From IMG/VR virus record IMGVR_UViG_3300012206_000001, positions 4,884 through 68,883 of that record: a stretch of DNA of 64,000 bases. One strand, 5' to 3'. Below, one piece after another: positions 2,710 to 53,360 of this stretch. Under the pieces are notes generated by a model that was not told the DNA's origin, made no database searches, and saw nothing but the letters and a program-made list of their open reading frames with translations. The translations under genes and the position numbers were made by a program. Each line of letters starts with the position of its first letter. The stretch's first letter is position 1. Origin of the DNA: a virus.

Positions 2710-3593
2710 TTCCTGCCTTCTTTCGCAATGGCGCGTTTCATCGCCGCGCCGAATAGCTCGTCCGTTTCCGCCTGGCGGCTGCTTCCCGGCTTGCGGCTTG
2801 CCTGAAGGCGCAGCTGATCGTATTTCTCGCGCAATTTCGGCATCGACAGGATGTTGGACCGCCAGAATTCGCTGTCCTGGCACCAGTCAATTGCTGTAGT
2901 TACCTGCTGCTCGGTGCGGCCGTCACGGTCGAGCATCAGCCGGGCTGAATCGCGCCAGCGTTTCGTGATTGCCGGCCGTTTGGAGCCGTTGGCTTCGATG
3001 CGGTCGGCGAGGTGGGCGCAGAGGCGCTCGACGTCGGCTCGCGCCGGTTTCGCCGGCACGTCTTTAACCTGTACCTCATCTATACCTGTACTGGTTATAA
3101 ACACGTCTGAAGTCTCAAACCCCGCAGGATCTGCGGGGTTTCCGGGGCTTGCACGCTCTGAGCTGCCGTTATAACTCTCAAAGGGTGCAGATCCTGCGGG
3201 GTTTGGAGGGTCGGCGAAACCCCGCAGATCCTGCGGGGTTTCGGTAAACCCCGCAGGATCTGCGGGGTTACTCGCCGGTATGGGTGCAGATCCTGCGGGG
3301 TTTCCGGGCTCAAACCCCGCAGGATCTGCGGGGTTTACCATGGTCGCCCGGTACCGCGTCCGGCGCCCCCGGCCGCCGCCGTGGCATGCCTCCAGCTCAC
3401 CGAAGCCGACGAGTTCCTTCACGGCAGTCTGCACCGTGCGCTCCCCCAGACGGCATTTAGAAGCCAATTCCAAAGCGCTCATCTCAGCCTCTCCGCCCTT
3501 GTCTGCCTTGTGCGCGATGGCCAGCAGGACGATGAGGGAGCCATTGACAGCGCGCGAATGCTTCCACACCCAGTCGATGACATTTTGCGCCAC
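2706..3593 (-). CDS. phage replication initiator (lambda O-like architecture)
   Basis: N-terminal wHTH, central repeat linker, C-terminal FWRSNILSMPKLREKYDQL motif. Confidence 0.8.
   Translation of the reverse strand: MAQNVIDWVWKHSRAVNGSLIVLLAIAHKADKGGEAEMSALELASKCRLGERTVQTAVKELVGFGELEACHGGGRGRRTRYRATMVNPADPAGFEPGNPAGSAPIPASNPADPAGFTETPQDLRGFADPPNPAGSAPFESYNGSSERASPGNPADPAGFETSDVFITSTGIDEVQVKDVPAKPARADVERLCAHLADRIEANGSKRPAITKRWRDSARLMLDRDGRTEQQVTTAIDWCQDSEFWRSNILSMPKLREKYDQLRLQASRKPGSSRQAETDELFGAAMKRAIAKEGRK
3117..3336. repeat. six palindromic iterons, candidate replication origin
   Basis: AAACCCCGCAG-GAT/ATC-CTGCGGGGTTT and GGGTGCAGATCCTGCGGGGTTT copies near 3117, 3183, 3217, 3247, 3283, 3312. 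Confidence 0.8.
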
Positions 3594-4016: not shown

Positions 4017-4649
4017 TCATGCGACAGCCTCCGCCCCGCTCTGGCTCACGCGTCGTGAAGCCTCGGCCAGCACGAGTGCCGTGACCCAGGAATGAAGGTC
4101 GGTATCGTCCTCTACGGAAAGGCGCAGGGCGATTTCGGCCACATCGCGCGGCATCTTGATGCGAACCGATTCATTCTGCTTGCGCTTCTGCCTATCCTTA
4201 TCCTGCTGGCAGGCCCTGCATTGACGGTGGCCCTTAGGCGTTACCAGGGTATTCTTGTCATCGTACGGATGCTGCTTCGGGCAGTGGGTCTTGCGCAGGT
4301 TTACTGCCACGAAGTTATTTCCCCGCCGGGTATTCTCTGCATTCGTGACGGGTTCCAGATGCCCAGGCCAGCAGCATGCTCTGGATACGCAGCCCCAGGC
4401 CTCCACGTGGTCGAGCTGCAGCTTGTCCGGGACGGACTCCGCGAGGAGCGTATAGACAAGCCGGTGAATGCGCCACAATCTTCCGTGCCAGCGAAAGAAG
4501 CCGTAGCCCCTCTTAGGGCAGCGATATCCCTGCCAGTCCCAGCAGCCTGTAACCGGGTTGACGGTTATTTTCGCGGCTATGTTTGCCGGAAGGTCGGTTA
4601 CGTGAAATTCGCGAGGCGGCCGGGTTCCTGCCGGAGGGGAGGTGCTCAA
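4017..4649 (-). CDS. HNH endonuclease
   Basis: GCWDWQG...GYG..HRLVY...LDH...HLEPVTNAENTRRG...THCPKQH; lower GC than neighbours. Confidence 0.85.
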   Translation of the reverse strand: MSTSPPAGTRPPREFHVTDLPANIAAKITVNPVTGCWDWQGYRCPKRGYGFFRWHGRLWRIHRLVYTLLAESVPDKLQLDHVEAWGCVSRACCWPGHLEPVTNAENTRRGNNFVAVNLRKTHCPKQHPYDDKNTLVTPKGHRQCRACQQDKDRQKRKQNESVRIKMPRDVAEIALRLSVEDDTDLHSWVTALVLAEASRRVSQSGAEAVA

Positions 4650-6019
4650 TGTCCTGCTCCCTTCTGCTTGCTGCCCGGCCAGGCGGGCTCACCCGGGCCG
4701 TAGCGGCACAGCAGCTCGTTCCACGCCACGGTTTCCCCCCAGGTCAGCGGGGTGCCGTCGCGGGGCAGCCCGGCCGGGGTGCGGGTCCGCCGCGGCAGGG
4801 GCCGGCGGGCACGCCGCAGGCCGCGCAGGCCGCGGAGCGCCCGGGGCAGCGCCCAGGCGAGGATCCCGGCGCAGCAGGCCACGGTGACGGCGAAAGCCCA
4901 TTCTGGGAGGGTCATTCCCGGCCTCCCTCGTCGTGGCTGCCGTCCTGGTGCCTGGCGAGGATGGCGAGGCGGGCGAGCAGGTTCAGGGCCAGGGCGAACC
5001 CGGCGGTGAGGCCGGCGGCGAAGAACCCTGCGGCGAGGCCTATGAGGGCGGTCACGGCCGCCTCCGCCTGTTCAGCCAGGTTTCCGCCCGGTCCGCTATC
5101 CAGCCGATGCCGGTCGCGGCGGTGAGCAGGAGCACCAGGGTGACGGCGACGACGGCCCAGAACGCCAGGTCGGGCGTCACGGGGCATCGCCGGCTTTTGC
5201 GTCTAGCGGCGGGCATCCGGGGCAGCGCCATTTGTCGCCGTCGCTGGTCCAGCCGATTTCCTCTGTGCTGGTCTCGGCCAGGTCCCGGGTTTGCCAGGCG
5301 GTGAACTCGTCGTAGTCGGCGCGCTCGCCGCAGCCGTCGCAGACGGCGAACCAGTACGGCTCGCTCTTAATCGGCATGGTGCCTCGTCTCGGTGCCGGGG
5401 GTCATGAGGGCCGTCCCCGGGCCGCGTAGGCGGGTTCGGGTGCCTGCTGTTTCCATCCGGACTGGATGGTGCGGAGGTCCCGCGCCTCATCGGGAGTCAG
5501 GAGTTCCCCGTCGGCGGGTGCCTTGCGGTGCAGCAGGCAGCGGATCCGGAAGCGGGCCCGGCAGATCAGCTCAGCCATCACGTGCCTCACCCTCGCGCGT
5601 GAGCCATCCGGCCAGCCCCGCGACGGCCCGGTCCTGCTGCTGCTGCGCTTCCCAGCACGCGGAGACGAGCAGCAGGGCGAGTTCCCCGGCCTGGGACAGG
5701 GTGAGCCGCCAGGTCATGCCCGGGCAGCCGACTGTGACCGTGTCGTGGTCGATGCCGATTCTCAGCGGCAGCTCGGCGATCCCGTCGTCGACCTGGCCGA
5801 TGGTGCGCACGCGCGGGTCACCCATCGCCGCCGCCTCCGTCCTGCTCGCGCCCGGCAGGCAGGGTCATGTGCTCGCGCGCCCCGGCCAGCATCACGTCGC
5901 CGTAGGCACTGCCCAGCTTGTACGCGAGCTCGGCTTTCCCGTCCTCGGTCAGCTGCGCGTCCTCGATGCTGCTCAGGCCCATCATGATGAGGCCGATCTC
6001 GGTCTGGTCGACGTTGAGT

Positions 6020-7270
6020 TCAGGCATCGCTGCCGCCGCCCTGCTCGCGCCCGTTCATGTATTCGATGAGCTTGCTGCGGTCGCCGCCGAACCCGCCGAG
6101 GGTGTCAGTGAGCTTGCGGGCCTCGGTGAAGGACAGGTCCTTGCTGGAGGTGAGCGCCCGCCCGGTGATGGTCTCGGCGATCTTGAGTTTCTGGTCGCGG
6201 TCTTTCTCGCCGAATCCGAGGCCGCCGAGGGTGATGTGCAGGCTGGTGAGCTGGTCGCCGCTGGCCGACCCGGGCTGGTCTTCGGCGGGGACTTCTAGTT
6301 TTGCCCCCTCATCTGAGGGGGATCCCGCGGGCGCGGCAGGACCGCTGGCCGGCGTTTCGTCCGGTACCGCGCCCGCGGGACGTTCAGGGGCGGGCCGGCG
6401 CGTGCGCGGCTTCCGCGCTCCGGCGGGTTCTTGTCCTGCCCCCTCATCTGAGGGCGTTTCCGCTGCCGGGTCGTCGACGATCTCGGCCTCGACGATCTCG
6501 TGCGCGGGCAGGGGGCCCATCGGCGGAGGCGGCAGGTACGTGAAGCCGGCCTCTGCGTGCGTCACCGAGCCCGCCGAGGCCGGGGCCATGTGGTTCACCG
6601 TGCGATACTCGGCCGAGGTCGGCACGTACGGCTCCAGCGCCCGCAGCACGGTCTTCTTGAACATGGCGGGTTCCCACTGCTGCCAGGGTGAGTCGGACCG
6701 GTCTGAGCCGCGTGAGGCCTTCTTGTGCTCCATGATCTCGGCGCGGCCCATCCGCACGACCTGGGAGCACTGGCCGGACGCGAGGATGGCGTAGGCGTAC
6801 GCGCCGCGTATCGGGCCGCGGCCGGCCTCGGGGGCGAAGTCGTCGTACTCGTGCAGCGGCGGGGTGTTCTCCCCGCGCGGGACGTACCGGTCGGCCTTGC
6901 GGACGACCTGGGCGACGACGGAGGAGACGCCGCCGGCGCGGAACATCCGCTCGATGATGCCCTTGTAGCCCTCGATGCCGGTGACCTCATTGCCGAAGGG
7001 GACGAGGTAGTAGTCGTCGGTATCGGGTTCGTGGCCGAGGCGGGCGCACTCGAGGAGGGCGTACAGCAGGGACTGGGGGCTGGCGATGGCGGCGGCGGCG
7101 AGCTTGTCGTCGCGGCGGAGCGCGCCCTGGGTGACGCGGATGATGGCGGAGGGCTTGACGTGGGTGGCGGCGGCCATGGCGATGTCGTCCTGCTGGCGGC
7201 GAAGCCAGGTGACGAGCTGGTCGGCCTTGTCGCGCCTGGCGACAGCGCCGGTGACGGTCTGTGCGGTCAT
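6020..7270 (-). CDS. recT: RecT single-strand annealing protein
   Basis: YYLVPF..GYKGIIE..FRAG, SPWQQWEPAMFKKTVLR; adjacent to YqaJ. Confidence 0.9.
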   Translation of the reverse strand: MTAQTVTGAVARRDKADQLVTWLRRQQDDIAMAAATHVKPSAIIRVTQGALRRDDKLAAAAIASPQSLLYALLECARLGHEPDTDDYYLVPFGNEVTGIEGYKGIIERMFRAGGVSSVVAQVVRKADRYVPRGENTPPLHEYDDFAPEAGRGPIRGAYAYAILASGQCSQVVRMGRAEIMEHKKASRGSDRSDSPWQQWEPAMFKKTVLRALEPYVPTSAEYRTVNHMAPASAGSVTHAEAGFTYLPPPPMGPLPAHEIVEAEIVDDPAAETPSDEGAGQEPAGARKPRTRRPAPERPAGAVPDETPASGPAAPAGSPSDEGAKLEVPAEDQPGSASGDQLTSLHITLGGLGFGEKDRDQKLKIAETITGRALTSSKDLSFTEARKLTDTLGGFGGDRSKLIEYMNGREQGGGSDA

Positions 7271-9007: not shown

Positions 9008-9204
9008 CGCGCACCTGCCCCGGCCAGGGCCGGCACCTGACGGCGGCGGCGCCCGGTGAGGACGTGAACCCAGCCGATGCCAGGCACGTACCCCCACCGC
9101 TCCGGGCAGCCGAGCGTCTCCTTGATCGTGGCCACGACCATCCGGGTGCACGTGCAGGTCTCCGGCTCGCCCGGCCAGGCTGGCCAGCGTCCTGGGGCGG
9201 TCAC
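9004..9204 (-). CDS. small hypothetical protein
   Basis: WPGEPETCTCT...GWVH. Confidence 0.5.
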   Translation of the reverse strand: MTAPGRWPAWPGEPETCTCTRMVVATIKETLGCPERWGYVPGIGWVHVLTGRRRRQVPALAGAGAR

Positions 9205-9715
9205 GTCGGGCCTCCGCAGAGCAGGGCGGTGGCCTCGCGGCAGATCTCGCGGACGGTGGACCGGGCGGCGAGGGTGTCGCCGCGGCGGCGGGCGTGCTCG
9301 GCGTCGTCGATGCGGCCTTCGTGCCCGGCGGCCTCCAGGATGGCGACTTTGAGCCGCAGGTAGGTGAGGGCGGCGTGGAGGCGGGCGGCGGCGCGGTCCT
9401 CGGCGCCGGGCCGCTCGCCGGTGGTGACGGACACGACGGTCAGCTGCGGCGGCGGCGCGGGCCAGGGGTGCACGCCGGGGGGGGTGTAGCGGGGCTGGCC
9501 GCGGAGCCGGGCCAGCGGCTCGGTGTCCTGGCCGGAGGCGGCCGGGGCGGGCAGCTCGTACGTGGCGCCGTCCCAGGCGGGCTGCGGGACCCTCGCGATG
9601 ACCTCGGTGACGGCCTCGGTGTCGCGGAAGTCGCCGGTGAAGGCGGGGGCGGTGCGCAGCAGCCGGGATCCGGCGGGCTGCCGCGCCGCGGCCCTGCGGG
9701 GGCGCCAGCGGGCGC

Positions 9716-45928: not shown

Positions 45929-47536
45929 TCAGCGAGCCGCGGCCTCATAGGCTTTCTCCCAGCGCACCCAGTGCTCCTGGATCGTGTACCCGGCCGCCAG
46001 CGCCCTGGCCTTCGCGCCCATCTCCTCCCGCGCCGCCGCATCGTTGATCAGCTCGGTCAGCCGGGCCTGCCACTGCTCCGGGGTGCGGACCAGGTACCCC
46101 GTCTCCCCGTCCCGGACGAACTCGCGGTACGGCTCGGAGTCCTGCGCCACGACCGGGATCCCCCGGGCGGCCGCCTCCAAACATTTCAAATACGATTTCG
46201 ATTTATTAAAAGGGATGTCCGCCAGGGGCGCGATCGCGATGTCGAAGTCGATGGCCTTGTAGTAGTCACCGACGTCATCCGCCCAGGGAGTGAACCGGCA
46301 CCGGGACCGCAGCCAGGGTGCCTTGATCCACTGCATCGGCGAATAGTCCACCCCGATCCAGTGCATGTCCACATCCGGGTGCGCGTCGAGGACGTCGCGG
46401 AGCGGGTCCTGGATGACGCACAGGTCGATCAGGTGCGACGTGCCGCCCTGCCACCCGATGGTCACCCGGTCCCTGCGCTTGCGCGGCATCTCCAGCAGCC
46501 CCGCCTTCACGTAATTCGGCAGCACCACGATATTGGAATTGAACGGGGCGTACAGGTCCGCCAGGTACGGCGTGGACACGGTCACCATCTCCGCGCGGCG
46601 CAGGCAGTACCGCACCGACTCCGCCGCCCGCGGGTCCGTGGTGAACGGCAGGTTCGACGTGTCCGTGGTGATCAGGTCATCATCGGTCTCATGCACCCGG
46701 GCGACGTGCCCGCCGAGCCGGTCGAACAGCCGCGTTCCCAGCGCGAACGTCGGCCGCTGGAACACCAGCACGTCGATGTCCTCCACGTCCGCCGGGGTCG
46801 GGTGCGGCAGCCTGGCGCCCGGCGCCGGTATGCCGAACACGTGCCGCGAGTTCGCGGTCAGGTGCCTGAACGGCTGGTACAGCCGGTGGTACCCGGACCC
46901 GTCCGCCTGGTAGGGCATCCCGACGATCGTCAGCGTCCGGTCCGCGGCCCCGCCCGCCGCGGCGGGGCCGGGGACGATGCCCCACGCCAGGTGACCGGTG
47001 ACCCCGGCGACCCCGAAGGCGTCCGCGACCTCCGTCACCCCCCACCCGGGGTGGCCCGTCGCCTCGCCCCGCCCGTAGTCGTGGAACGCCACCCACCCGC
47101 CCGGCCGGACCAGCGGCAGGACGAGCGTCAGATCCGCCGCCACCGCCGCCGCGTCATGCTGCGCGTCCAGGAACACCCCGTCGAACAGCCGCCCCTCCCG
47201 GGCCAGGGCGGGCAGCACGTCCTCGAACCGGCCCCGCCGCGCATCGACCTTGGCCGCGACCCCGTACCGGGCCAGGTTTCCCCGGTACGCGTCCCACGTC
47301 CCCGCCTCGCCCAGGCCAGCGTCCCGGTCCCAGTCCGCCGTCCCCGCATCCCCCCGGTGCCAGTCCACCGACGTGACCCGCCGGGCCGCCTGCGCCAGGA
47401 CCACCGTGGAGAACCCGAACCACGCCCCCAGCTCGAGCACGTCACCGCCCCGCGCCAGGGTCGCCAGCCGGGCCGCCTCCTCCGCCGTCACCCCCGTCGG
47501 GATGTCATCCGGGACCGTCACGGTCATCCCCGCCAT
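45929..47536 (-). CDS. methyltransferase-glycosyltransferase (GT4-like) fusion
   Basis: VLELGAWFGFST...FLDAQH...GGWVAFHDY, then ETDDDL, DIAIAPL..FNKSKSYLKCLEAAARGIPVVA. Confidence 0.85.
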   Translation of the reverse strand: MAGMTVTVPDDIPTGVTAEEAARLATLARGGDVLELGAWFGFSTVVLAQAARRVTSVDWHRGDAGTADWDRDAGLGEAGTWDAYRGNLARYGVAAKVDARRGRFEDVLPALAREGRLFDGVFLDAQHDAAAVAADLTLVLPLVRPGGWVAFHDYGRGEATGHPGWGVTEVADAFGVAGVTGHLAWGIVPGPAAAGGAADRTLTIVGMPYQADGSGYHRLYQPFRHLTANSRHVFGIPAPGARLPHPTPADVEDIDVLVFQRPTFALGTRLFDRLGGHVARVHETDDDLITTDTSNLPFTTDPRAAESVRYCLRRAEMVTVSTPYLADLYAPFNSNIVVLPNYVKAGLLEMPRKRRDRVTIGWQGGTSHLIDLCVIQDPLRDVLDAHPDVDMHWIGVDYSPMQWIKAPWLRSRCRFTPWADDVGDYYKAIDFDIAIAPLADIPFNKSKSYLKCLEAAARGIPVVAQDSEPYREFVRDGETGYLVRTPEQWQARLTELINDAAAREEMGAKARALAAGYTIQEHWVRWEKAYEAAAR

Positions 47537-47821: not shown

Positions 47822-48679
47822 TCAGCCGACCGTGAGTAGCCGGAATGCGTTGGTGGAACTTACACCTGAGCCACTCCGCCAATAATAGAACCAGCCTTGC
47901 TGCCCCTTGGGCGCTCCGGTGGAGCTGTCTTTGATCATGGGCTCGAACAGCATGCTGACCCCGATGCGGTCCGCGATGATGAAGTGGTCCCACGCGCCGA
48001 AGATGAGGGCGGCGGACCCGGTGCCGGTGGCGGCGGTGCCGGTGGTGCCGGTGGCGGTGGTGACCGACGGGGATTCCTCGATGACGTGGTTGAGGAGCCG
48101 GGACGGGGTGCCATCGCCGAGCGTCGCCCAGAACGAGGATCCGGCGCCGGACGGGGACAGGCCCCGGACCTTGTTGATGGTGCCGATGTTCCCGACGAAC
48201 CCCACGGAGGGGTTGAGCCGGAACCGGGGGCCGAGCGCGGCCTCGAGGTTGTAGATGTCCTGGGCGACGTACGGGCCGCCGGGAGTGCCCAGGACGACCC
48301 GCTGCGCGGTGCCCAGGCTGAACGCGATCCCGGACGGCGCCCCGGCGTTCAGCGCGGTCCCCCCGGTCCCCGCGGCGAAGTTCTGCTCCTCCAGGATGTC
48401 CTTGCCGTCCTGCAGCAGGCGGGGGAGCTGGTCAGCGAAGTTGGTGTCCTCGTTCGCCTCGAGACTCCCGTAGATCCACGCGGCGGCCTTCTTCACCCCG
48501 ATCTGGATCTGCCCGACGCCGGAATAGGCGGCGGTGGAGGCGCTGGCGGCCTCGTCGAGGTAGGCGGCCTGCACCCCGGCCGAGTTGACCCCCTGCCACG
48601 CGTTCGTCGTCGTCTGCTTCACGCTGGCCAGACGGCGGTACGGGTTCGTCGTCCCGTCCGTGGTGAGCACGATGGTTGG
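47822..48679 (-). CDS. major capsid protein, exon 2
   Basis: PTIVLT...NPYRRLA...LIFGAW..FIIADRIG...GWFYYWR..AFRLL HK97-fold C-terminus. Confidence 0.9.
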   Translation of the reverse strand, partial: PTIVLTTDGTTNPYRRLASVKQTTTNAWQGVNSAGVQAAYLDEAASASTAAYSGVGQIQIGVKKAAAWIYGSLEANEDTNFADQLPRLLQDGKDILEEQNFAAGTGGTALNAGAPSGIAFSLGTAQRVVLGTPGGPYVAQDIYNLEAALGPRFRLNPSVGFVGNIGTINKVRGLSPSGAGSSFWATLGDGTPSRLLNHVIEESPSVTTATGTTGTAATGTGSAALIFGAWDHFIIADRIGVSMLFEPMIKDSSTGAPKGQQGWFYYWRSGSGVSSTNAFRLLTVG

Positions 48680-49646
48680 CGCTTTGTTACTCACGCCCAG
48701 GCAGGGCGCGGGGCTGGTCATTTCTGCCAGCCTCTCCGCGTCTCCGCGGAGGCCAGACTATATCTTTATCCCACTTGTGCCGTTTTGAACTGCTCCGCCA
48801 GGCCGGCCAGCGCCCGGAGGGTTCCGGGGTTCTCGTCTACCATGCCAAGCGCCAGGTTGCACCGATAGCACAGCAGCGCCCGGACCTGGCCGGACTTGTG
48901 GCAGTGGTCGATGCACCAGTTCTTGCGCCCTGGCTGGTCCGTCCCGCATCCTGCGCAGCGACCGCCCTGGCTGGCCAGGAGCCGGTCATGCTCCTCCTGG
49001 GTTAGCCCGTACCTGCGGAGCCGTCGCCGTTCTTCGATATCGCGGCTGCGCTCGCGGCGGTCAGCCCGGCAGTTGTCACAGACCGCCAGGCCGGGTTTGC
49101 GGACCGTCTCGGAGAGGGCGGCCTGGCACTTATGGCAGCGCCTGACGCCTGTCCGGTCCCGGCTCCGGGCCACATCCCGGGCGGCCCTGCATTCTGGGCA
49201 GTAGCGGGGCAGCGGACCTGCCCGGCGTACCTGAATGCGTGCCCCGCAGGACTCGCATTTGGTATCCGGGCGTTGCGGCCGGGGCTCGTAGTGGCGCTTG
49301 GCCCTTTCGCGGCTCAGGTGACGGCGCCACTGGATCTGGCATTCCATCTTGCAGGTCTTGTCGACCTGCCGTCGCGGGGTGAACATCTCCCCGCAGATTA
49401 CGCACTCTCGGTCCGGCACGAACCAAGAGTACAGGATGACTGGAAGTGGGATATCCCGTACATAGTCGTTGAACCTTCTTGTCGGGGCGGACCCAGGCAA
49501 GCTCGGCTGCTGATTATCCCTACCGGCCGCTTCTCAAACCGTCGCGCTCACGCTTTCGCGTCACGCTGTGGTGCGACCGTCTATCAGGACGTTCCAGCAA
49601 TTCTCGGGATTTTCACTAGCACCTTACGGTGCTAGGCGACCATTTG
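48680..49646 (-). ncRNA. group I self-splicing intron (967 nt) in the capsid gene
   Basis: P1 with U-G at the splice site; P GAAUUGCUGGAA, Q AAUCAGCAG, R GUUCAACGACUA, S AAGAUAUAGUC; P3, P7, P8 pairings; terminal G; splicing restores FTLD-PTIV in frame. Confidence 0.93.
48766..49419 (-). CDS. intron-encoded endonuclease VII-type homing endonuclease (P8 loop)
   Basis: RYGLT...QGGRCAGC...IDHCH..GQVRALLC.RCN.ALG; TACTCT-N6-GTG. Confidence 0.88.
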   Translation of the reverse strand: MPDRECVICGEMFTPRRQVDKTCKMECQIQWRRHLSRERAKRHYEPRPQRPDTKCESCGARIQVRRAGPLPRYCPECRAARDVARSRDRTGVRRCHKCQAALSETVRKPGLAVCDNCRADRRERSRDIEERRRLRRYGLTQEEHDRLLASQGGRCAGCGTDQPGRKNWCIDHCHKSGQVRALLCYRCNLALGMVDENPGTLRALAGLAEQFKTAQVG

Positions 49647-50249
49647 ATCGAGCGTGAAAGGAACCATGTAGCCGCCCTGGGCCAGTACCAGCGACAGCGC
49701 CCCGGCGGCACGCTGCACGCCCTCCCCCAGCGGGTCGTTGAGGTAGTCGCGGAACGCCTCGTAATACTCGTCGTTGCCGAACATCAGGATGTGCCGGGCG
49801 ATCTTCGGGTCCGAGGTGGCCTTGCGAGTGGATTCCTCCGCGAACTCGTCAGCCAGCCGCCCGGCCCGGTTGCAGTATTCCACCGCGGTCTGCGCGCGGG
49901 CGACCATGTCGCTGCCGGTGACCAGGTGCCGCTTGACCTGGTCCAGGTCGCCGAACGGGTCCGGGCGCATCATGAACTGCGGGGAGCGCCCCTCCCACCG
50001 GCCGGGCCCGCCGCCGCCGTCACCGGGTTCGCGGTTGGCCGGGTCGGCGGCAGCCTTGCGGATCAGCTCCAGCTCCTCCATCCGCGATACGATCTTCGCC
50101 CGGTCCTCGTCGAGTTCCTTCCACCGGGACACCAGCGTGTCCCGCATGTTGCCGTCCTTGTCCTCGGTGGTGTCCGGGTCCGAGGCGATCCGCTCCAGTT
50201 CCTCGTGGATCGTGTTCTGCTCGCGGATGATGTCATCCAGGGTTGCCAT
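49647..50249 (-). CDS. major capsid protein, exon 1
   Basis: Coiled-coil delta-like N-terminus ending GGYMVPFTLD; follows the protease gene. Confidence 0.88.
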
Positions 50250-50252
50250 TTG

Positions 50253-51748
50253 CTACCACTGACTCCTCAGGGGTCCGATACCGGTCTCGCGGCACATCTC
50301 CTCGATGCGGAGCGCGAGCAGCCGGTGGGCGTGATACCGGGGAGTCGAGGTCACGTCTTCGGGCGTGCCGCCGGCGGCATCCCCCTCCATTGCGGGGGTG
50401 CTCTCCTCGTCCTCGGGCAGGTCAAGTTCAAGGTCCCCGGCCGTGCCGGGCAGGGCCATGCGGACGCCGAGGAACTCAGCCCCGGTGTACGCGCCGTACA
50501 GGACCGGGCCGTACTCCCGCAGCCCCAGGGCCATCCGCCGCACCGTCTGCAGCACCCCGTTGCGGCCGCGGTACTTGTCACCCGGGCCACGGAGCTCCGG
50601 GTCGGACCGGTGGATCCCGCCGACGAAGGACTGCCCGGTGATGCGGCCCTCCCGGATGTCGTCGAGGATCTCCTCGGCGAAAGGCTTCTTCGCGTACTCG
50701 GTGCGGGTCAGCAGCCCCCGCCCGTCAGGGCGGATGTCGAGCGCCTTGCCGATGGGCCGCTGGAACTCCGGGGCGGGGACGCCCTCCATCGTCTTGCCGT
50801 GGTTGAACAGGACGCGGACCGCGCCGCCGAACCCGCCGCGGGACCGGGCGATCTTCGCGAGGACCGCGTCGAACGCCGACCGGTCGATGACCTCCGTGTA
50901 GTGGCCTTGGGCGTCGTGGATCTCGGCGGGCTCGTCGAACACGGTGGCGTACGCCTCGACGACCCGGCCGGAGGGTTCCCCGTCGGCCGCGCGCATGACC
51001 CGGATGTCATCCAGCGGGTAGTAGCGGAAGATCTCACCCGCGGCGCGCGCGGCGCTGCCGCCGCTGCGGGCCTTGCCCGCCAGCTTGCCGAACGCGGCCT
51101 TGCCGTACCGCTTCCGCCCGATGTACGCGGCGAGCGCACCCGGGTCCGTCGCGCCCTTCGCGGCCAGCGACGACTTCAGCTTCGCGAACCGCGCGCCGGT
51201 GCCGAGCTTCGGCGCGGCGCGGGACGCCTGCTCCCCGGCGGCCGGGGTCATGCCCATGGCCTTCTCCGCGGCCTCCATGTGGGACACGCCGAGGCCGGTC
51301 AGGTCCGGCAGGTCGGAATGGTCGCCGTCCCAGGAGCTGTCCAGGCCGTCGGCGTCGTAATCGCCGGATGCCGGTGTCGTCACTGCGGACCTCCTGGTCG
51401 ATTGCTTCTCCATGGCCGCGTGCGTGGCCGGCCAGATGCCCAGCGCGGCGTGATGACGCTCAGCGCAGAACCCCTTCGCCCGCTCCGGGTCCATGTGCGC
51501 CTCGTCCACCGCCAGCCGGACGCAGCGGTCAAAGTCCCCGCCCTCCGGCGGATCAGCTCCTCCTCAGACGGGGCGTCCGGAGACAGCGCGGCGACGTCGC
51601 GCCACAGCCGTTCCATCGCCGATGTCACCGGCTCCGGCAGGCCGGCGCAATCGCCCAGTGCCTCGAGCAGGGCAATGACAGATGCGTTGAACTTCTGGAT
51701 CTGCGGCAGGTCCGCGATGCGGACGTCCACCGTGACGGTCTCAGCCAT
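50253..51748 (-). CDS. HK97-type prohead protease with N-terminal extension; frame break near 51545
   Basis: VEAYATVFD, EVIDRSAF, VLFNHG, GQSF, LREYGPV..AY; GDFDRCV...AKGFCA segment upstream. Confidence 0.8.
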
Positions 51749-53174
51749 GACTGGCTCCGTTCATGTCCCTGCGCACCGACGCCGGCCGCATCCCCGGTCT
51801 TGTTGAGTTTCCGCCGTCACCTGGTGAAACAGTCCCGGCCGGAATCCGCAGCTGGCTGCCTTCCGGCAGCGGCGGGACGCCCGGGCCGCTGCCCGGCGGC
51901 TGCGGGACCAGGTGCTGCGACGTCTGCGGCTGCGGCGCCGCCGCGGCCGGGTCCACCTCGAGCTGCGACACGTCGTTCGCCAGCACCGCCTTCACCGCGG
52001 AATCGAACGTGGACCCGGCGTTGCGGTACGTCAGGACCGCCTGCGCGTGGATCAGCGACATCTGCGCGCGTTCCTGCTCACCTTCCTGCAATGCCGCGAT
52101 GTCGGCCGTGTCGAACCACAGGCGCACCGCCCCGGCATCCACGTCGTTGCCGGGGGTGAGCTTCTGCAGCGCCCCGCAGAACGACCGCCACTGCGGCCGG
52201 CCGAACAGGTCCGCGAACTTCCGCATGCTCTCCTGGTAGCCGCGGCCCGCCCCGCGCAAAGGTTCCAGGCCCACGATCACGCCCGGCACGTTCCCCGCGG
52301 CCAGCACCCGCTCCGCCCCGGCGGCCTGCACCCCGGAGAAATCCATCTGCGCCAGGTTCGACCCGATGATCGTCGCGTCAGCGCCGCTGTCGAGCACCAG
52401 CGTCCCGCCGGCGCCCTCCGGGCCGCCGTACCGGGCGTTCACCCGCTCCCGGATCGCATCGATCGTGCCCGGCGCCAGCCTCTGCGCGTACTTCAGCAGC
52501 AGGTTAGGGCTGGCATGATGCTCCAGGTAGCGGATCTTGTACGTGGTCATCCCGCTGTCCGCCTGCACGTCCCGTATCACCGGGGTCAGCCACGACATGC
52601 CCCGGAACTCCGCGGCGGGATCAGGCAGCGGATGCCAGTGCACGACCTCACGGGCCAGCGCGAACTGCGGCTCCCCGTACTCCGGCTCCAGCTGCCTCGG
52701 CGGGGAATAGTCATAGCCGATCACCTGCCGGTAATGGCCGCCGCGCGGCGCGGACACGATCCGGGAGATGATCGTCACCCACTCCGGCCGCCACCTGACG
52801 AGGCGGTCACCCGCATCCCACAAGAAGAAATTCCCCGCCAGCGACACGTCCTGCTCCGCGCGGACCAGCAGCTCCCCCTCGGTGCCATCCGGCCACGGAT
52901 GCTGCAGGACCCCCAACCGCGCGTCGGTGAACAGCTTCTTGTCCGCGACCCGCTGGAACGAGAACCGGCATTCACTGACCAGGACCATCCTGGCCAGGAT
53001 CGCGGAGAACACGGCCCCGTTGGTGCCGTACGCCTGCTGGGCGGCCGACGCCACGCCCGGCAGGATCGCCTCCCTGTCCGGGCTGCCGTACGTCGTCGTC
53101 AGGACCGCCGCGCCGCTAGCCTGGCCCTCCCAGTAGCCGGCGTCACGGCGGATCAGCCGGTCAATCAGCCGCAT
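51741..53174 (-). CDS. portal protein (HK97-like)
   Basis: LAGNFF, FRGMSWL, TLVLDSGAD, AAGNVP. Confidence 0.9.
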   Translation of the reverse strand: MRLIDRLIRRDAGYWEGQASGAAVLTTTYGSPDREAILPGVASAAQQAYGTNGAVFSAILARMVLVSECRFSFQRVADKKLFTDARLGVLQHPWPDGTEGELLVRAEQDVSLAGNFFLWDAGDRLVRWRPEWVTIISRIVSAPRGGHYRQVIGYDYSPPRQLEPEYGEPQFALAREVVHWHPLPDPAAEFRGMSWLTPVIRDVQADSGMTTYKIRYLEHHASPNLLLKYAQRLAPGTIDAIRERVNARYGGPEGAGGTLVLDSGADATIIGSNLAQMDFSGVQAAGAERVLAAGNVPGVIVGLEPLRGAGRGYQESMRKFADLFGRPQWRSFCGALQKLTPGNDVDAGAVRLWFDTADIAALQEGEQERAQMSLIHAQAVLTYRNAGSTFDSAVKAVLANDVSQLEVDPAAAAPQPQTSQHLVPQPPGSGPGVPPLPEGSQLRIPAGTVSPGDGGNSTRPGMRPASVRRDMNGASHG

Positions 53175-53360
53175 GCGCACCGCACCAGTTGCAGTACCGG
53201 CCGCCTAGCCGCTGCCGGAACCAGTGCCGCCCGCAGCGGTGCAGCGCGCGCATGGCCGTCCCGTAAACGCGCGAGTAGATCCACGCGTACTGGCCGTAGG
53301 GCGCGCCGTCCTCGCGGCGGAAGCTCTTCAGGTGACTGAATGCCAGCCTCGTTGCCGCGT

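What the first reader, a model, noticed from the sequence alone, without database searches (positions are those of the whole stretch)
48680..49646. Group I intron with EndoVII homing endonuclease in the major capsid gene
Seen: a full catalytic core with P1 CGAU^C/GGUCG, P3 AUCCCG/CGGGAU, P7 GACUA/UAGUC, P8 AUCCCACUU/AAGUGGGAU enclosing the ORF, and a terminal G. Splicing gives a 486-aa capsid protein. Established: phage group I introns are mostly in DNA-metabolism genes with HNH or GIY-YIG nucleases. A capsid host gene, an EndoVII-type nuclease and an internal leaderless promoter are less usual.
Basis: partly seen in the sequence, partly recalled or inferred. Interest (0 to 1): 0.75.

Follow-up and report, generated by a model that had tools for sequence, protein, structure and literature searches.

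The report
Mobile group I intron splitting capsid gene
A self-splicing group I intron that carries its own DNA-cutting "homing" enzyme interrupts the major capsid gene of an uncultivated soil phage; it is almost certainly real, but it is a new member of known kinds, not a new kind.

Summary
On the minus strand, 49646..48680 (967 nt) is a group I intron. It splits an HK97-type major capsid gene between ...PFTLD and PTIVL.... Removing it gives a 486-aa protein that aligns without a gap at the junction to 34 of 34 uninterrupted homologues.

Rfam's group I model matches in two pieces on either side of the internal ORF, 32.6 and 23.1 bits. Five ORF-less relatives score 68-85 bits, above the 50-bit threshold. 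In 11 related introns, 97.3% of pair cells form standard pairs, against 29-42% when the pairing is slid. 36 pairs show compensatory changes, including the splice-site helix P1.

The ORF lies in P8. It encodes a 217-aa protein with three CxxC...CxxC modules and an intact endonuclease VII ("DHHRN") nuclease domain.

The closest capsid relative (95% identical) has no intron. A capsid only 49% identical carries a 92%-identical intron. That pattern is what homing would produce.

The novelty is modest. Capsid-gene introns (LittleE, Tuc2009) and intron-encoded EndoVII-type nucleases are already published. What is new is a family that occupies four sites in capsid genes. Splicing, cleavage and the leaderless promoter are inferred, not shown.

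The parts
49647..50249 (-). Capsid gene exon 1 (201 codons, ends ...PFTLD; last base is U). It encodes the N-terminal part of the protein.
   Evidence: ORF list. tblastn of this exon finds its homologue directly upstream of the exon-2 homologue in 74 of 79 loci. If unspliced, the frame runs 4 codons into the intron to TAG at 49634-49632.
48680..49646 (-). Group I intron, 967 nt.
   Evidence: RF00028 matches in two pieces. Covariation in 11 relatives. The junction alignment has no gap. ORF-less relatives pass Rfam's gathering score.
47822..48679 (-). Capsid gene exon 2 (285 codons plus stop, begins PTIVLTTDG).
   Evidence: Pfam PF05065 Phage_capsid, E 3.2e-23. tblastn similarity to phage capsids starts exactly at residue 15 of the naive ORF, which is the exon-2 start.
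49637..49650 (-). P1: 5' exon CGAU plus intron C pair with the internal guide GGUCG. The U.G wobble is at 49647/49640.
   Evidence: U.G is kept in 11 of 11 relatives. Exon position -2 covaries with the guide (G-C in 6, A-U in 5).
49616..49635 (-). P2 hairpin (8 bp, GUAA loop).
   Evidence: MFE fold. 6 of 7 counted pairs show compensatory changes.
49473..49599 (-). P4-P5 (with a long P5 extension) and P6/P6a domain.
   Evidence: Rfam alignment, MFE fold. P4 is invariant; P5ext and P6a have compensatory changes.
49444..49467 (-). P7 5' strand (49467-49463), P3 3' strand (49458-49453) and P8 5' strand (49452-49444).
48766..49419 (-). Homing endonuclease ORF in the P8 loop. GTG start at 49419; 217 aa; TAA at 48768-48766 overlaps the P8 3' strand. 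It has three CxxC...CxxC modules followed by an endonuclease VII domain (about 49029-48811).
   Evidence: Pfam PF02945, E 7.5e-19. PHROGs 'endonuclease VII'. Profile match to T4 endonuclease VII 1e7d, E 3.5e-9. The GTG start is conserved in 5 of 5, and in L105 a stop lies one codon upstream. Catalytic residues are invariant in 6 of 6.
49426..49431 (-). TACTCT, a possible -10 element (TANNNT) 6 nt upstream of the GTG. This is inferred only.
   Evidence: TGTAYTCTT followed by 5-6 further nt (so 6-7 nt between the TAYTCT hexamer and the GTG) is kept in 5 of 5 ORF-bearing relatives. TANNNT consensus from PMC3898074 (passages). Not detected by the sigma-70 scan.
48756..48776 (-). P8 3' strand (48776-48768), J8/7 AAGAUAUAGUC, and P7 3' strand (48760-48756).
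   Evidence: Second RF00028 match, 23.1 bits, model positions 219-251. P7 is invariant in 11 of 11. 7 of 9 P8 pairs show compensatory changes.
48680..48751 (-). P9 (GAGA loop), P9.1 (GAAA loop), P9.2 and the 3' tail GAGUAACAAAGCG ending in the terminal G (48680).
   Evidence: MFE fold z -4.11. Compensatory changes in 4 of 7 P9 pairs and 6 of 7 P9.2 pairs. The terminal G is kept in 11 of 11.
50253..53180 (-). Context: portal gene (53180..51741) and prohead protease gene (51509..50253) directly upstream of the capsid gene.
   Evidence: Pfam PF04860, E 9.4e-23, and PF04586, E 5.7e-9.

Best explanation
The 967-nt insert is a mobile group I intron in the major capsid gene of a complete, uncultivated, high-G+C soil phage (68.9 kb, direct terminal repeats).

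Proposed mechanism:
1. The late capsid transcript folds into the P1-P9.2 ribozyme.
2. An external guanosine bound at P7 attacks after the U of the P1 U.G pair (49647).
3. The terminal G (48680) then takes its place, and the exons are ligated. This restores the conserved ...LD-PTI... motif and a 486-aa capsid precursor.
4. The P8 loop carries a 217-aa endonuclease with three zinc-binding CxxC modules for DNA recognition and an endonuclease VII / DHHRN His-Me nuclease.
5. During co-infection this enzyme cuts intron-less capsid alleles near the insertion site. Repair from the intron-bearing copy then copies the intron and its flanking codons (GAT|CCA) into the recipient.

Shown here: the sequence anatomy, the conserved fold with covariation, the exact restoration of the reading frame, intact catalytic residues, and a distribution of intron-plus, ORF-less and intron-less alleles that fits homing.

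Inferred: splicing itself, endonuclease activity and target, and expression of the ORF from a leaderless GTG transcript.
For: RNA model. RF00028 matches 49660..49440 (32.6 bits, E 3.7e-6) and 48768..48736 (23.1 bits, E 0.0028), in the right order and flanking the ORF. Five ORF-less relatives that are 84-95% identical in the 5' core score 68.4-85 bits against a 50-bit threshold.

Covariation (11 sequences, 94 pairs, 15 helices).
- 97.3% of cells are paired, against 29.3-42.0% when the 3' partners are slid.
- 36 pairs change on both sides, against 2-7 when slid. 0 of 500 shuffles reach this.
- The P1 U.G pair is kept in 11 of 11. Exon position -2 covaries with the guide sequence (6 G-C, 5 A-U).

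Reading frame. The spliced product aligns with 34 of 34 uninterrupted 500-552-aa homologues with no gap at LD|PTI. Of 79 related loci holding both halves, 74 are uninterrupted. Four are interrupted at the same site and one 24 nt upstream.

Horizontal movement. The nearest capsid (L002; 95% and 91% aa identity for the two exons) lacks the intron. L042's capsid is 49% identical in exon 2, yet its intron core is 92% identical and carries a homologous ORF.

Flanking codons. All 5 of 5 intron-bearing alleles at this site read CTCGAT|CCAAC. Of 74 intron-less alleles, 64 use GAC and 10 use GAT.

Endonuclease. PF02945, E 7.5e-19. Profile match to T4 endonuclease VII residues 7-71, E 3.5e-9. The CxxC, D-H-x-H, R and CxxC-N residues are invariant in 6 of 6.

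Independent DNA. A 1700-nt contig from another study's soil run covers 48551..50249 with 0 differences.

Gene context. Portal, protease, then capsid.
Against: - No hit reaches Rfam's gathering score in the window itself.
- The energy z-score of the 5' fold is weak (-1.72).
- P10 is at most 1 bp by inspection.
- No RNA run holds the locus, so splicing is unobserved.
- No sigma-70-type promoter or terminator was detected in 48600-49750.
- The 11 aligned introns are related, so the shuffle control overstates independence. The slid control is the fairer one.
- Endonuclease activity and its target site are untested.
- The structure model is a loose chain of modules (pTM 0.38), and Foldseek finds nothing at E <= 0.001.
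Confidence: 0.92

Rival explanations
1. The intron is real and splices, but it is no longer mobile in this phage. The ORF would then be an inactive relic, or would act only as a splicing helper (maturase).
For: Relatives show all stages of ORF loss. L005, L140 and L123 have no ORF, and L183 keeps only the ORF's 3' end. ORF-less forms co-occur in the same soil runs (joints 48772->49448 and 48776->49444). No cleavage data exist.
Against: The window ORF is intact. All catalytic and zinc-binding residues are invariant across 6 homologues. Five same-sense ORFs stay open at 58-63% aa identity, which implies purifying selection. The intron core is 92% identical in a capsid only 49% identical, which argues for recent transfer.
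Confidence: 0.15
2. There is no splicing. A free-standing endonuclease gene has split the capsid gene into two separately translated pieces ('genes in pieces'): a 205-aa N-terminal protein, and a 299-aa protein starting at ATG 48721.
For: Both flanking ORFs are open, and the downstream one has an in-frame ATG at 48721. Gene callers would annotate three genes here.
Against: The insert has a complete, covarying group I core. Relatives of 294-304 nt with no coding capacity interrupt the same motif. The break falls inside the most conserved motif, LD|PTI. The 14 residues from ATG 48721 to the junction have no counterpart in homologues, whose similarity starts at residue 15.
Confidence: 0.03
3. Assembly artefact: a chimeric contig joined an unrelated intron and endonuclease into a capsid gene.
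For: The record is a metagenome assembly. Relatives with and without the intron co-occur in the same soils.
Against: A contig from a different study spans both junctions with 0 differences. Five other loci from other samples are interrupted in the same motif: four at the identical site and L014 24 nt upstream. The insert is bounded precisely by a U and a G, and the frame is kept.
Confidence: 0.01

Closest known systems
Group I intron in the major capsid gene gp13 of mycobacteriophage LittleE (Pope et al. 2013, PMC3706429; record JF937101)
   Same: Both sit in an actinophage-type capsid gene that follows the prohead protease gene (portal-protease-capsid in the window). Both insert in the same conserved stretch: LittleE at GG|Y, the window 8 codons downstream at LD|PT. 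They share the P9.1 motif GGCAGAAAUGACC and a GAGUAACAA 3' tail. The exon ends in U and the intron in G. LittleE scores 30.7 bits on RF00028, about the same as the window. In both, methyltransferase and glycosyltransferase genes follow the capsid gene. Splicing of LittleE was shown by RT-PCR and N-terminal sequencing.
   Different: The P3-P8 core is different, with about 43-52% identity between LittleE and three ORF-less relatives of the window intron (L005, L140, L123; the window copy itself was not aligned). No blastn match was found in the phage collection. LittleE's endonuclease is of LAGLIDADG type, on the opposite strand, downstream of P9.1. The window's is of EndoVII type, on the sense strand, in P8. 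The insertion site also differs.
[quoted passage not shown]
   Same: The Endo VII catalytic motif is C-terminal, with CxxC, D-H-x-H, R and CxxC-N all present. The gene is encoded inside a group I intron.
   Different: The host gene is a capsid gene, not a DNA polymerase or psbA neighbour. The N-terminal part has three CxxC...CxxC modules. Of 795 phage records that match the protein, 0 cover 80% or more of it. The host is a high-G+C soil phage. The paper's supplementary list of 313 proteins could not be read, so an actinophage member there cannot be excluded.
Rfam RF00028 Intron_gpI
   Same: P1-P9 topology. The conserved J6/7-P7 (GGUUCAACGACUA) and J8/7 (AAGAUAUAGUC) align to the model. ORF-less relatives score 68-85 bits.
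   Different: The window copy is split by the ORF and scores 32.6 + 23.1 bits in two hits. No P7.1/P7.2 is present. The subgroup (IA/IB/IC) was not assigned, because no tool for that was available.
Phage T4 endonuclease VII (gp49), PDB 1e7d, and restriction enzyme Hpy99I, 3fc3
   Same: The nuclease domain is homologous: E 3.5e-9 over T4 residues 7-71, and E 3.2e-6 to Hpy99I.
   Different: T4 gp49 is a Holliday-junction resolvase whose motif is N-terminal. Here the motif is C-terminal, behind zinc modules, and the gene sits in an intron. That is the arrangement the F-CphI paper assigns to its 'endonuclease clade'.
Capsid-gene intron of lactococcal phage Tuc2009
   Same: A group I intron in a capsid subunit gene. 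This is known to me only as cited in the Introduction of PMC3706429.
   Different: Its host is a low-G+C bacterium. The original paper was not read and no sequence comparison was made.

Membership tests
Group I intron (Rfam RF00028) | Score at or above the curated gathering threshold (50 bits) | tested here: inconclusive
   Window: 0 hits at gathering. There are two collinear partial hits of 32.6 and 23.1 bits, split by the 670-nt ORF. ORF-less relatives 84-95% identical in the 5' core score 85, 82.8, 80.4, 72.5 and 68.4 bits. The ORF-deleted window sequence could not be submitted.
Group I intron (Rfam RF00028) | P1 with a U.G wobble at the 5' splice site, formed with an internal guide sequence | tested here: met
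   U49647.G49640. U.G is kept in 11 of 11 relatives, and the neighbouring pair covaries with the exon (6 G-C, 5 A-U).
Group I intron (Rfam RF00028) | [quoted passage not shown] | tested here: met
   G48680; invariant in 11 of 11 aligned introns.
Group I intron (Rfam RF00028) | Catalytic core: P3-P7 pseudoknot, P4-P6 domain, P8, and conserved J8/7 | tested here: met
   All helices are located. 97.3% of cells are paired and 36 pairs are compensatory. J8/7 AAGAUAUAGUC aligns to model positions 219-251.
Group I intron (Rfam RF00028) | Removal restores an uninterrupted, conserved host reading frame | tested here: met
   486 aa, with no gap at the junction against 34 of 34 homologues. 74 of 79 related loci are uninterrupted at this point.
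Group I intron (Rfam RF00028) | Guanosine-dependent self-splicing | not testable with these tools
   No RNA run holds the locus. This needs an in vitro assay.
Endonuclease VII / DHHRN homing endonuclease family (Pfam PF02945; PMC6083498) | Pfam Endonuclease_7 domain above the curated cut-off | tested here: met
   67.9 bits against a cut-off of 23.6; E 7.5e-19.
Endonuclease VII / DHHRN homing endonuclease family (Pfam PF02945; PMC6083498) | Conserved CxxC, D-H-x-H, R and CxxC-N residues (T4 C23/C26, D40, H41, H43, R54, C58/C61, N62) | tested here: met
   C155, C158, D171, H172, H174, R180, C184, C187 and N188 are invariant in 6 of 6. They align to the T4 motif. The residue roles come from PMC6083498.
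Endonuclease VII / DHHRN homing endonuclease family (Pfam PF02945; PMC6083498) | Site-specific cleavage of the intron-less allele | not testable with these tools
   There is only indirect support: the intron is shared at 92% identity between capsids about 49% identical.
HK97-type major capsid protein (Pfam PF05065) | Phage_capsid domain, and a position after the portal and prohead protease genes | tested here: met
   Exon 2: 83 bits, E 3.2e-23. Protease PF04586 and portal PF04860 lie directly upstream.

The most novel reading that the evidence does not exclude
The window's intron belongs to an undescribed lineage of group I introns specialised on capsid genes of soil actinophage-like viruses. 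The lineage moves between at least four sites of the capsid gene: three within the GG-Y-x-V-P-x-x-L-D-P-T motif, and one about 70 codons downstream. It does so by changing its internal guide sequence, and it has acquired EndoVII-type endonuclease genes in P8 at least twice, once sense and once antisense. It shares parts with the LittleE intron type. Its endonuclease may also act as a weapon, cutting the essential capsid gene of intron-less co-infecting relatives. That would be interference competition of the kind reported for the PhiPA3 intron endonuclease (PMC11620839; abstract seen in a search listing only).
Probability: 0.3. Interest if true: 0.6.

Novelty: new member of a known kind. Interest (0 to 1): 0.35.

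Why it matters
For annotation: gene callers will report three genes here, namely a 205-aa 'hypothetical' protein, an 'endonuclease VII', and a 299-aa truncated capsid. The true capsid is 486 aa. Rfam at its default threshold also misses the intron.

For biology: the locus and its relatives give a natural series in one gene family. The series contains intron with endonuclease, intron with an endonuclease remnant, ORF-less intron, and empty site. Guide-sequence changes track four insertion sites. This is a compact system for studying how group I introns retarget and cycle. It would also allow a test of whether cutting a rival's capsid gene gives a competitive advantage.

It extends the one experimentally proven actinophage capsid intron (LittleE) to a much wider, uncultivated soil group.

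Tried and rejected
- Rfam at gathering threshold on the window: nothing.
- blastn of the whole capsid/intron region against 50,697 phage records: no match.
- Searching viral contigs with the single endonuclease protein: first attempt failed on a frame error of mine. The corrected attempt found no relative.
Only 12 of its loci (9 new, 3 already held under other ids) proved related by blastn.
- Sigma-70 promoter/terminator scan of 48600-49750: 0 and 0.
- Sequencing runs: no RNA holder listed, so splicing could not be observed.
- DNA-contig joints 48673->49688 and 48622->49731 look like intron-less relatives, but they have unknown letters between the sides and come from other strains, so they count as weak.
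- Earlier scan notes: none for this genome.
- Structure of the endonuclease: pLDDT 80.5 but pTM 0.38. Foldseek against the PDB gave no match at E <= 0.001. The best weak rows were Hpy99I and T4 endonuclease VII. The N-terminal modules remain 'zinc-ribbon-like' by sequence pattern only.
- Intein considered and rejected: in-frame stop after 4 codons, and an RNA core is present.
- Group II intron considered and rejected: no such Rfam hit, and the group I core is complete.
- Subgroup assignment (IA/IB/IC) was not attempted for lack of a tool.
- Literature searches found no paper describing an EndoVII-type endonuclease inside a capsid-gene intron. This covers only the held library. The supplementary tables of PMC6083498 were not readable.
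Full report
**What the window is.** The window is bases 4884-68883 of a 68,883-bp IMG/VR virus record with direct terminal repeats, rated 100% complete. G+C is about 0.69-0.77 around the locus and falls to 0.58-0.61 over the 5' ribozyme core. All genes discussed here lie on the minus strand, in this order:
- portal (53180..51741, PF04860);
- prohead protease (51509..50253, PF04586);
- the interrupted capsid gene;
- a methyltransferase-glycosyltransferase fusion (47536..45929).

**Checking the observation.** A plain ORF list shows three ORFs where one capsid gene is expected:
- 50249..49632: 205 aa, no Pfam hit.
- 49500..48766: 244 aa from a TTG, PF02945 Endonuclease_7, E 7.5e-19.
- 48721..47822: 299 aa, PF05065 Phage_capsid, E 3.2e-23.

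Their coordinates are listed under 'parts'.

Exon 1 ends ...CUCGAU at 49647. The intron runs 49646..48680 and ends in G. Exon 2 starts CCAACC at 48679. Both exons are in phase 0. Left unspliced, the exon-1 frame stops 4 codons into the intron.

**Is it a group I intron?**
- *Rfam.* At its gathering threshold Rfam finds nothing in the window. With E-value reporting, RF00028 matches 49660..49440 (32.6 bits, E 3.7e-6; P1 through P3') and 48768..48736 (23.1 bits, E 0.0028; J8/7, P7' and P9). These are the two halves of the model, on either side of the ORF in P8. The first half is also the only group I hit in a scan of the whole window (E 1.6e-4).
- *Folding.* An unconstrained MFE fold of the 5' half returns P1, P2, P3, P4, P5, a long P5 extension and P6. 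Its energy z-score is only -1.72. The 3' part folds into three hairpins, P9, P9.1 and P9.2, with z -4.11.
- *Not resolved.* P10 is at most one base pair by inspection. No P7.1/P7.2 is present. I did not assign a subgroup.

**Does removal restore the gene?** A search with exon 2 among longer proteins returned 36 capsid homologues of 500-1214 aa. The computed spliced product aligned to 34 of them (P0007 and P0036, both protease fusions, were left out). None of the 34 has a gap at the junction. The junction falls inside the best-conserved motif, (Y/F)(L/M)(L/V)P(Y/F)x(L)D|P(T/S)(I/V)(I/V)L. tblastn against cultured phages starts its match at residue 15 of the naive 299-aa ORF, which is exactly the exon-2 start.

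**Relatives at the same locus.** A profile of the capsid family retrieved 80 IMG/VR loci, the best 80 of 322. Of these, 79 hold both halves of the gene:
- 74 are uninterrupted. These include L002, the closest relative (95% and 91% aa identity in exons 2 and 1), whose junction reads CTCGAC|CCCACC.
- 5 are interrupted:

| Locus | Insert | Nature |
|---|---|---|
| L005 | 302 nt | Same intron, no ORF, same LD\|PT site |
| L013 | 419 nt | Same intron, a different small insert in P8, same site |
| L042 | 975 nt | Same intron, with a homologous ORF, same site |
| L080 | 270 nt | Same site, but a different core |
| L014 | 271 nt | Intron 24 nt upstream, at GG\|Y |

**Further relatives from a core-motif scan.** A 15-nt core motif scan plus blastn added more members:

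| Loci | Intron length | Exon context |
|---|---|---|
| L095, L105, L123, L140, L183 | 975, 980, 304, 294, 362 nt | ...VPV\|(F/L)IDP...; the exon ends CCGGU |
| L107 | 972 nt | GGYLV\|PFTLDP |
| L106 and L156 | 942 nt (L106; L156 matched, borders not refined) | ...FIPYS-I-ELGMD..., about 70 codons further into a PF05065 capsid |

So this intron type occupies four sites, and every host gene examined is a capsid gene.

**Covariation.** I aligned 11 introns with 8 nt of 5' exon and 6 nt of 3' exon (A3). The structure tested came from the window's MFE folds, with P7 and P8 added by hand. Results:
- 94 pairs in 15 helices; 97.3% of cells form standard pairs, against 29.3-42.0% when the 3' partners are slid by 1-3 columns.
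- 36 pairs change on both sides, against 2-7 when slid. 0 of 500 shuffles reach the observed values for 4 of 5 measures (6 of 500 for the fifth).
- In P1 the U.G pair is kept in 11 of 11. The exon base at -2 (A or G) covaries with the guide sequence (U or C): 5 A-U and 6 G-C. The guide sequence therefore tracks the insertion site.
- P4 and P7 are invariant, so they carry no covariation information. P2, P8, P9 and P9.2 carry most of the compensatory changes.

The sequences are related to each other, so the slid control is the more honest of the two controls.

Five ORF-less relatives pass Rfam's gathering score: L013 85.0, L005 82.8, L123 80.4, L183 72.5 and L140 68.4 bits. L080 and L014 do not.

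**The ORF.**
- *Start codon.* A GTG at 49419 begins the conserved protein in 5 of 5 same-sense relatives. In L105 a stop codon lies one codon upstream. In L042 the upstream frame is broken by an indel.
- *Conservation.* The 217-aa product shares 58-63% identity with the four same-sense homologues.
- *Architecture.* Three CxxC...CxxC modules are followed by the endonuclease VII domain.
- *Catalytic residues.* C155, C158, D171, H172, H174, R180, C184, C187 and N188 are invariant in 6 of 6. They align with the T4 endonuclease VII catalytic domain (1e7d residues 7-71, E 3.5e-9; Hpy99I, E 3.2e-6). These are the residues that define the 'DHHRN' family (PMC6083498, passages read).
- *Stop codon.* The stop overlaps the P8 3' strand. 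In three relatives the ORF reads on into J8/7.
- *Second acquisition.* L106 carries a different EndoVII-type ORF (37% identity) on the opposite strand of the same P8 loop.
- *Decay.* L183 keeps only the last ~50 nt of the ORF.
- *Cultured phages.* 795 records match the nuclease domain, but 0 cover 80% or more of the protein. PHROG phrog_1035 does span residues 14-212 (E 9.6e-10).
- *Structure model.* Confident locally (pLDDT 80.5) but not globally (pTM 0.38). Foldseek gave no match at E <= 0.001.

**Signs of mobility (inference).**
- The intron core is better conserved than its hosts. L042's intron is 92% identical while its capsid exon 2 is 49% identical. The figures for L005 are 94% against 78% (exon 2) and 52% (exon 1).
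- The nearest capsid, L002, is empty.
- All 5 intron-bearing alleles at this site have CTCGAT|CCAAC. Of 74 empty alleles, 64 use GAC and 10 use GAT. This fits either co-conversion or the need for the U.G pair.
- In soil DNA runs from other studies, one contig spans the whole intron and both junctions with 0 differences. Other contigs show the ORF-less form (joints 48772->49448 and 48776->49444) and loose ends that match the L005-type relative.

**The promoter claim.** TACTCT lies at 49431-49426, 6 nt before the GTG. TGTAYTCTT followed by 5-6 further nt, then the GTG, is kept in 5 of 5 ORF-bearing relatives, and no Shine-Dalgarno sequence lies at a usable distance. In Mycobacterium tuberculosis a TANNNT -10 motif is centred 7-12 bp upstream of 73% of primary transcription starts, with no -35 consensus (PMC3898074, passages read). 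Leaderless GTG initiation has also been suggested for the LittleE intron ORF (PMC11855218, passage read). The E. coli-type scan finds nothing. TANNNT carries little information, and the five sequences are related to each other. The claim is plausible but unproven.

**Comparison with what is known.**
- *LittleE gp13 intron.* Its splicing was shown by RT-PCR and N-terminal sequencing (PMC3706429, passages read). It sits at GG|Y, the same site as L014 and 8 codons upstream of the window's site.
- *Core.* LittleE's core resembles those of L014 and L080 (60-69% identity among the three). It is about 43-52% identical to three ORF-less relatives of the window intron (L005, L140, L123; the window copy was not in that alignment).
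- *Shared parts.* LittleE and the window type share the P9.1 motif and the 3' tail.
- *Endonuclease.* LittleE's is of LAGLIDADG type and antisense.
- *Other precedents.* That paper also cites a capsid-gene intron in phage Tuc2009. Intron-encoded EndoVII-motif endonucleases are known from DNA-polymerase introns.

Each component of the finding is therefore already known. Four literature searches found no description of this combination or of this family. The library is partial, and supplementary tables were closed.

**Verdict.** This is a genuine, probably mobile, group I intron, and a new member of known kinds. The added value is the family-level picture: four capsid sites with a matching guide sequence, two endonuclease acquisitions, ORF decay, and empty alleles. 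Interest 0.35.

Noticed in passing
L080:3231-3500: A 270-nt intron at the same LD|PT site. Its P1-P2 region and 3' tail are nearly those of the window type, but its P3-P8 core resembles LittleE and L014 (62-69% identity). It looks like a recombinant between two intron types. It does not reach Rfam's gathering score.
   Followed up: partly
L014:3206-3476: A 271-nt LittleE-like intron inserted at GG|Y, 24 nt upstream of the window's site. This is the same codon position as the proven LittleE gp13 intron. The host capsid is 69% identical to the window's.
   Followed up: partly
L106:1971-2912 (also L156): The same intron type at a second capsid site (...FIPYS-I-ELGMD...). It carries a different EndoVII-type ORF (214 aa, 37% identical) on the antisense strand of P8. 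This points to an independent endonuclease acquisition.
   Followed up: partly
L183:3954-4315: A 362-nt intron that retains only the 3' end of the endonuclease ORF, a snapshot of ORF decay.
   Followed up: no
L132 (about 5870-6800 and 9200-9640) and L142 (about 4070-4940): More distant relatives of the intron core (70-78% identity) occur several times in tandem within about 1-3 kb on two large viral contigs (95.7 kb and 101 kb). Three of the copies pass Rfam's gathering score. The host genes were not examined.
   Followed up: no
window 45929-47536 (-): A 535-aa methyltransferase (PF13578) plus group-1 glycosyltransferase fusion directly downstream of the capsid gene. LittleE likewise has glycosyltransferase and methyltransferase genes right after its capsid gene. 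This may indicate capsid glycosylation.
   Followed up: partly
window 3215-3272: A ~55-nt palindromic hairpin that matches a microRNA model (mir-3155) on both strands, at E 9e-4 and 5e-3, far below the gathering score. It is almost certainly just an inverted repeat.
   Followed up: no
L013:548-966: The same intron with an unrelated ~120-nt insert in P8 instead of the endonuclease ORF. The insert contains a GC-rich inverted repeat.
   Followed up: no
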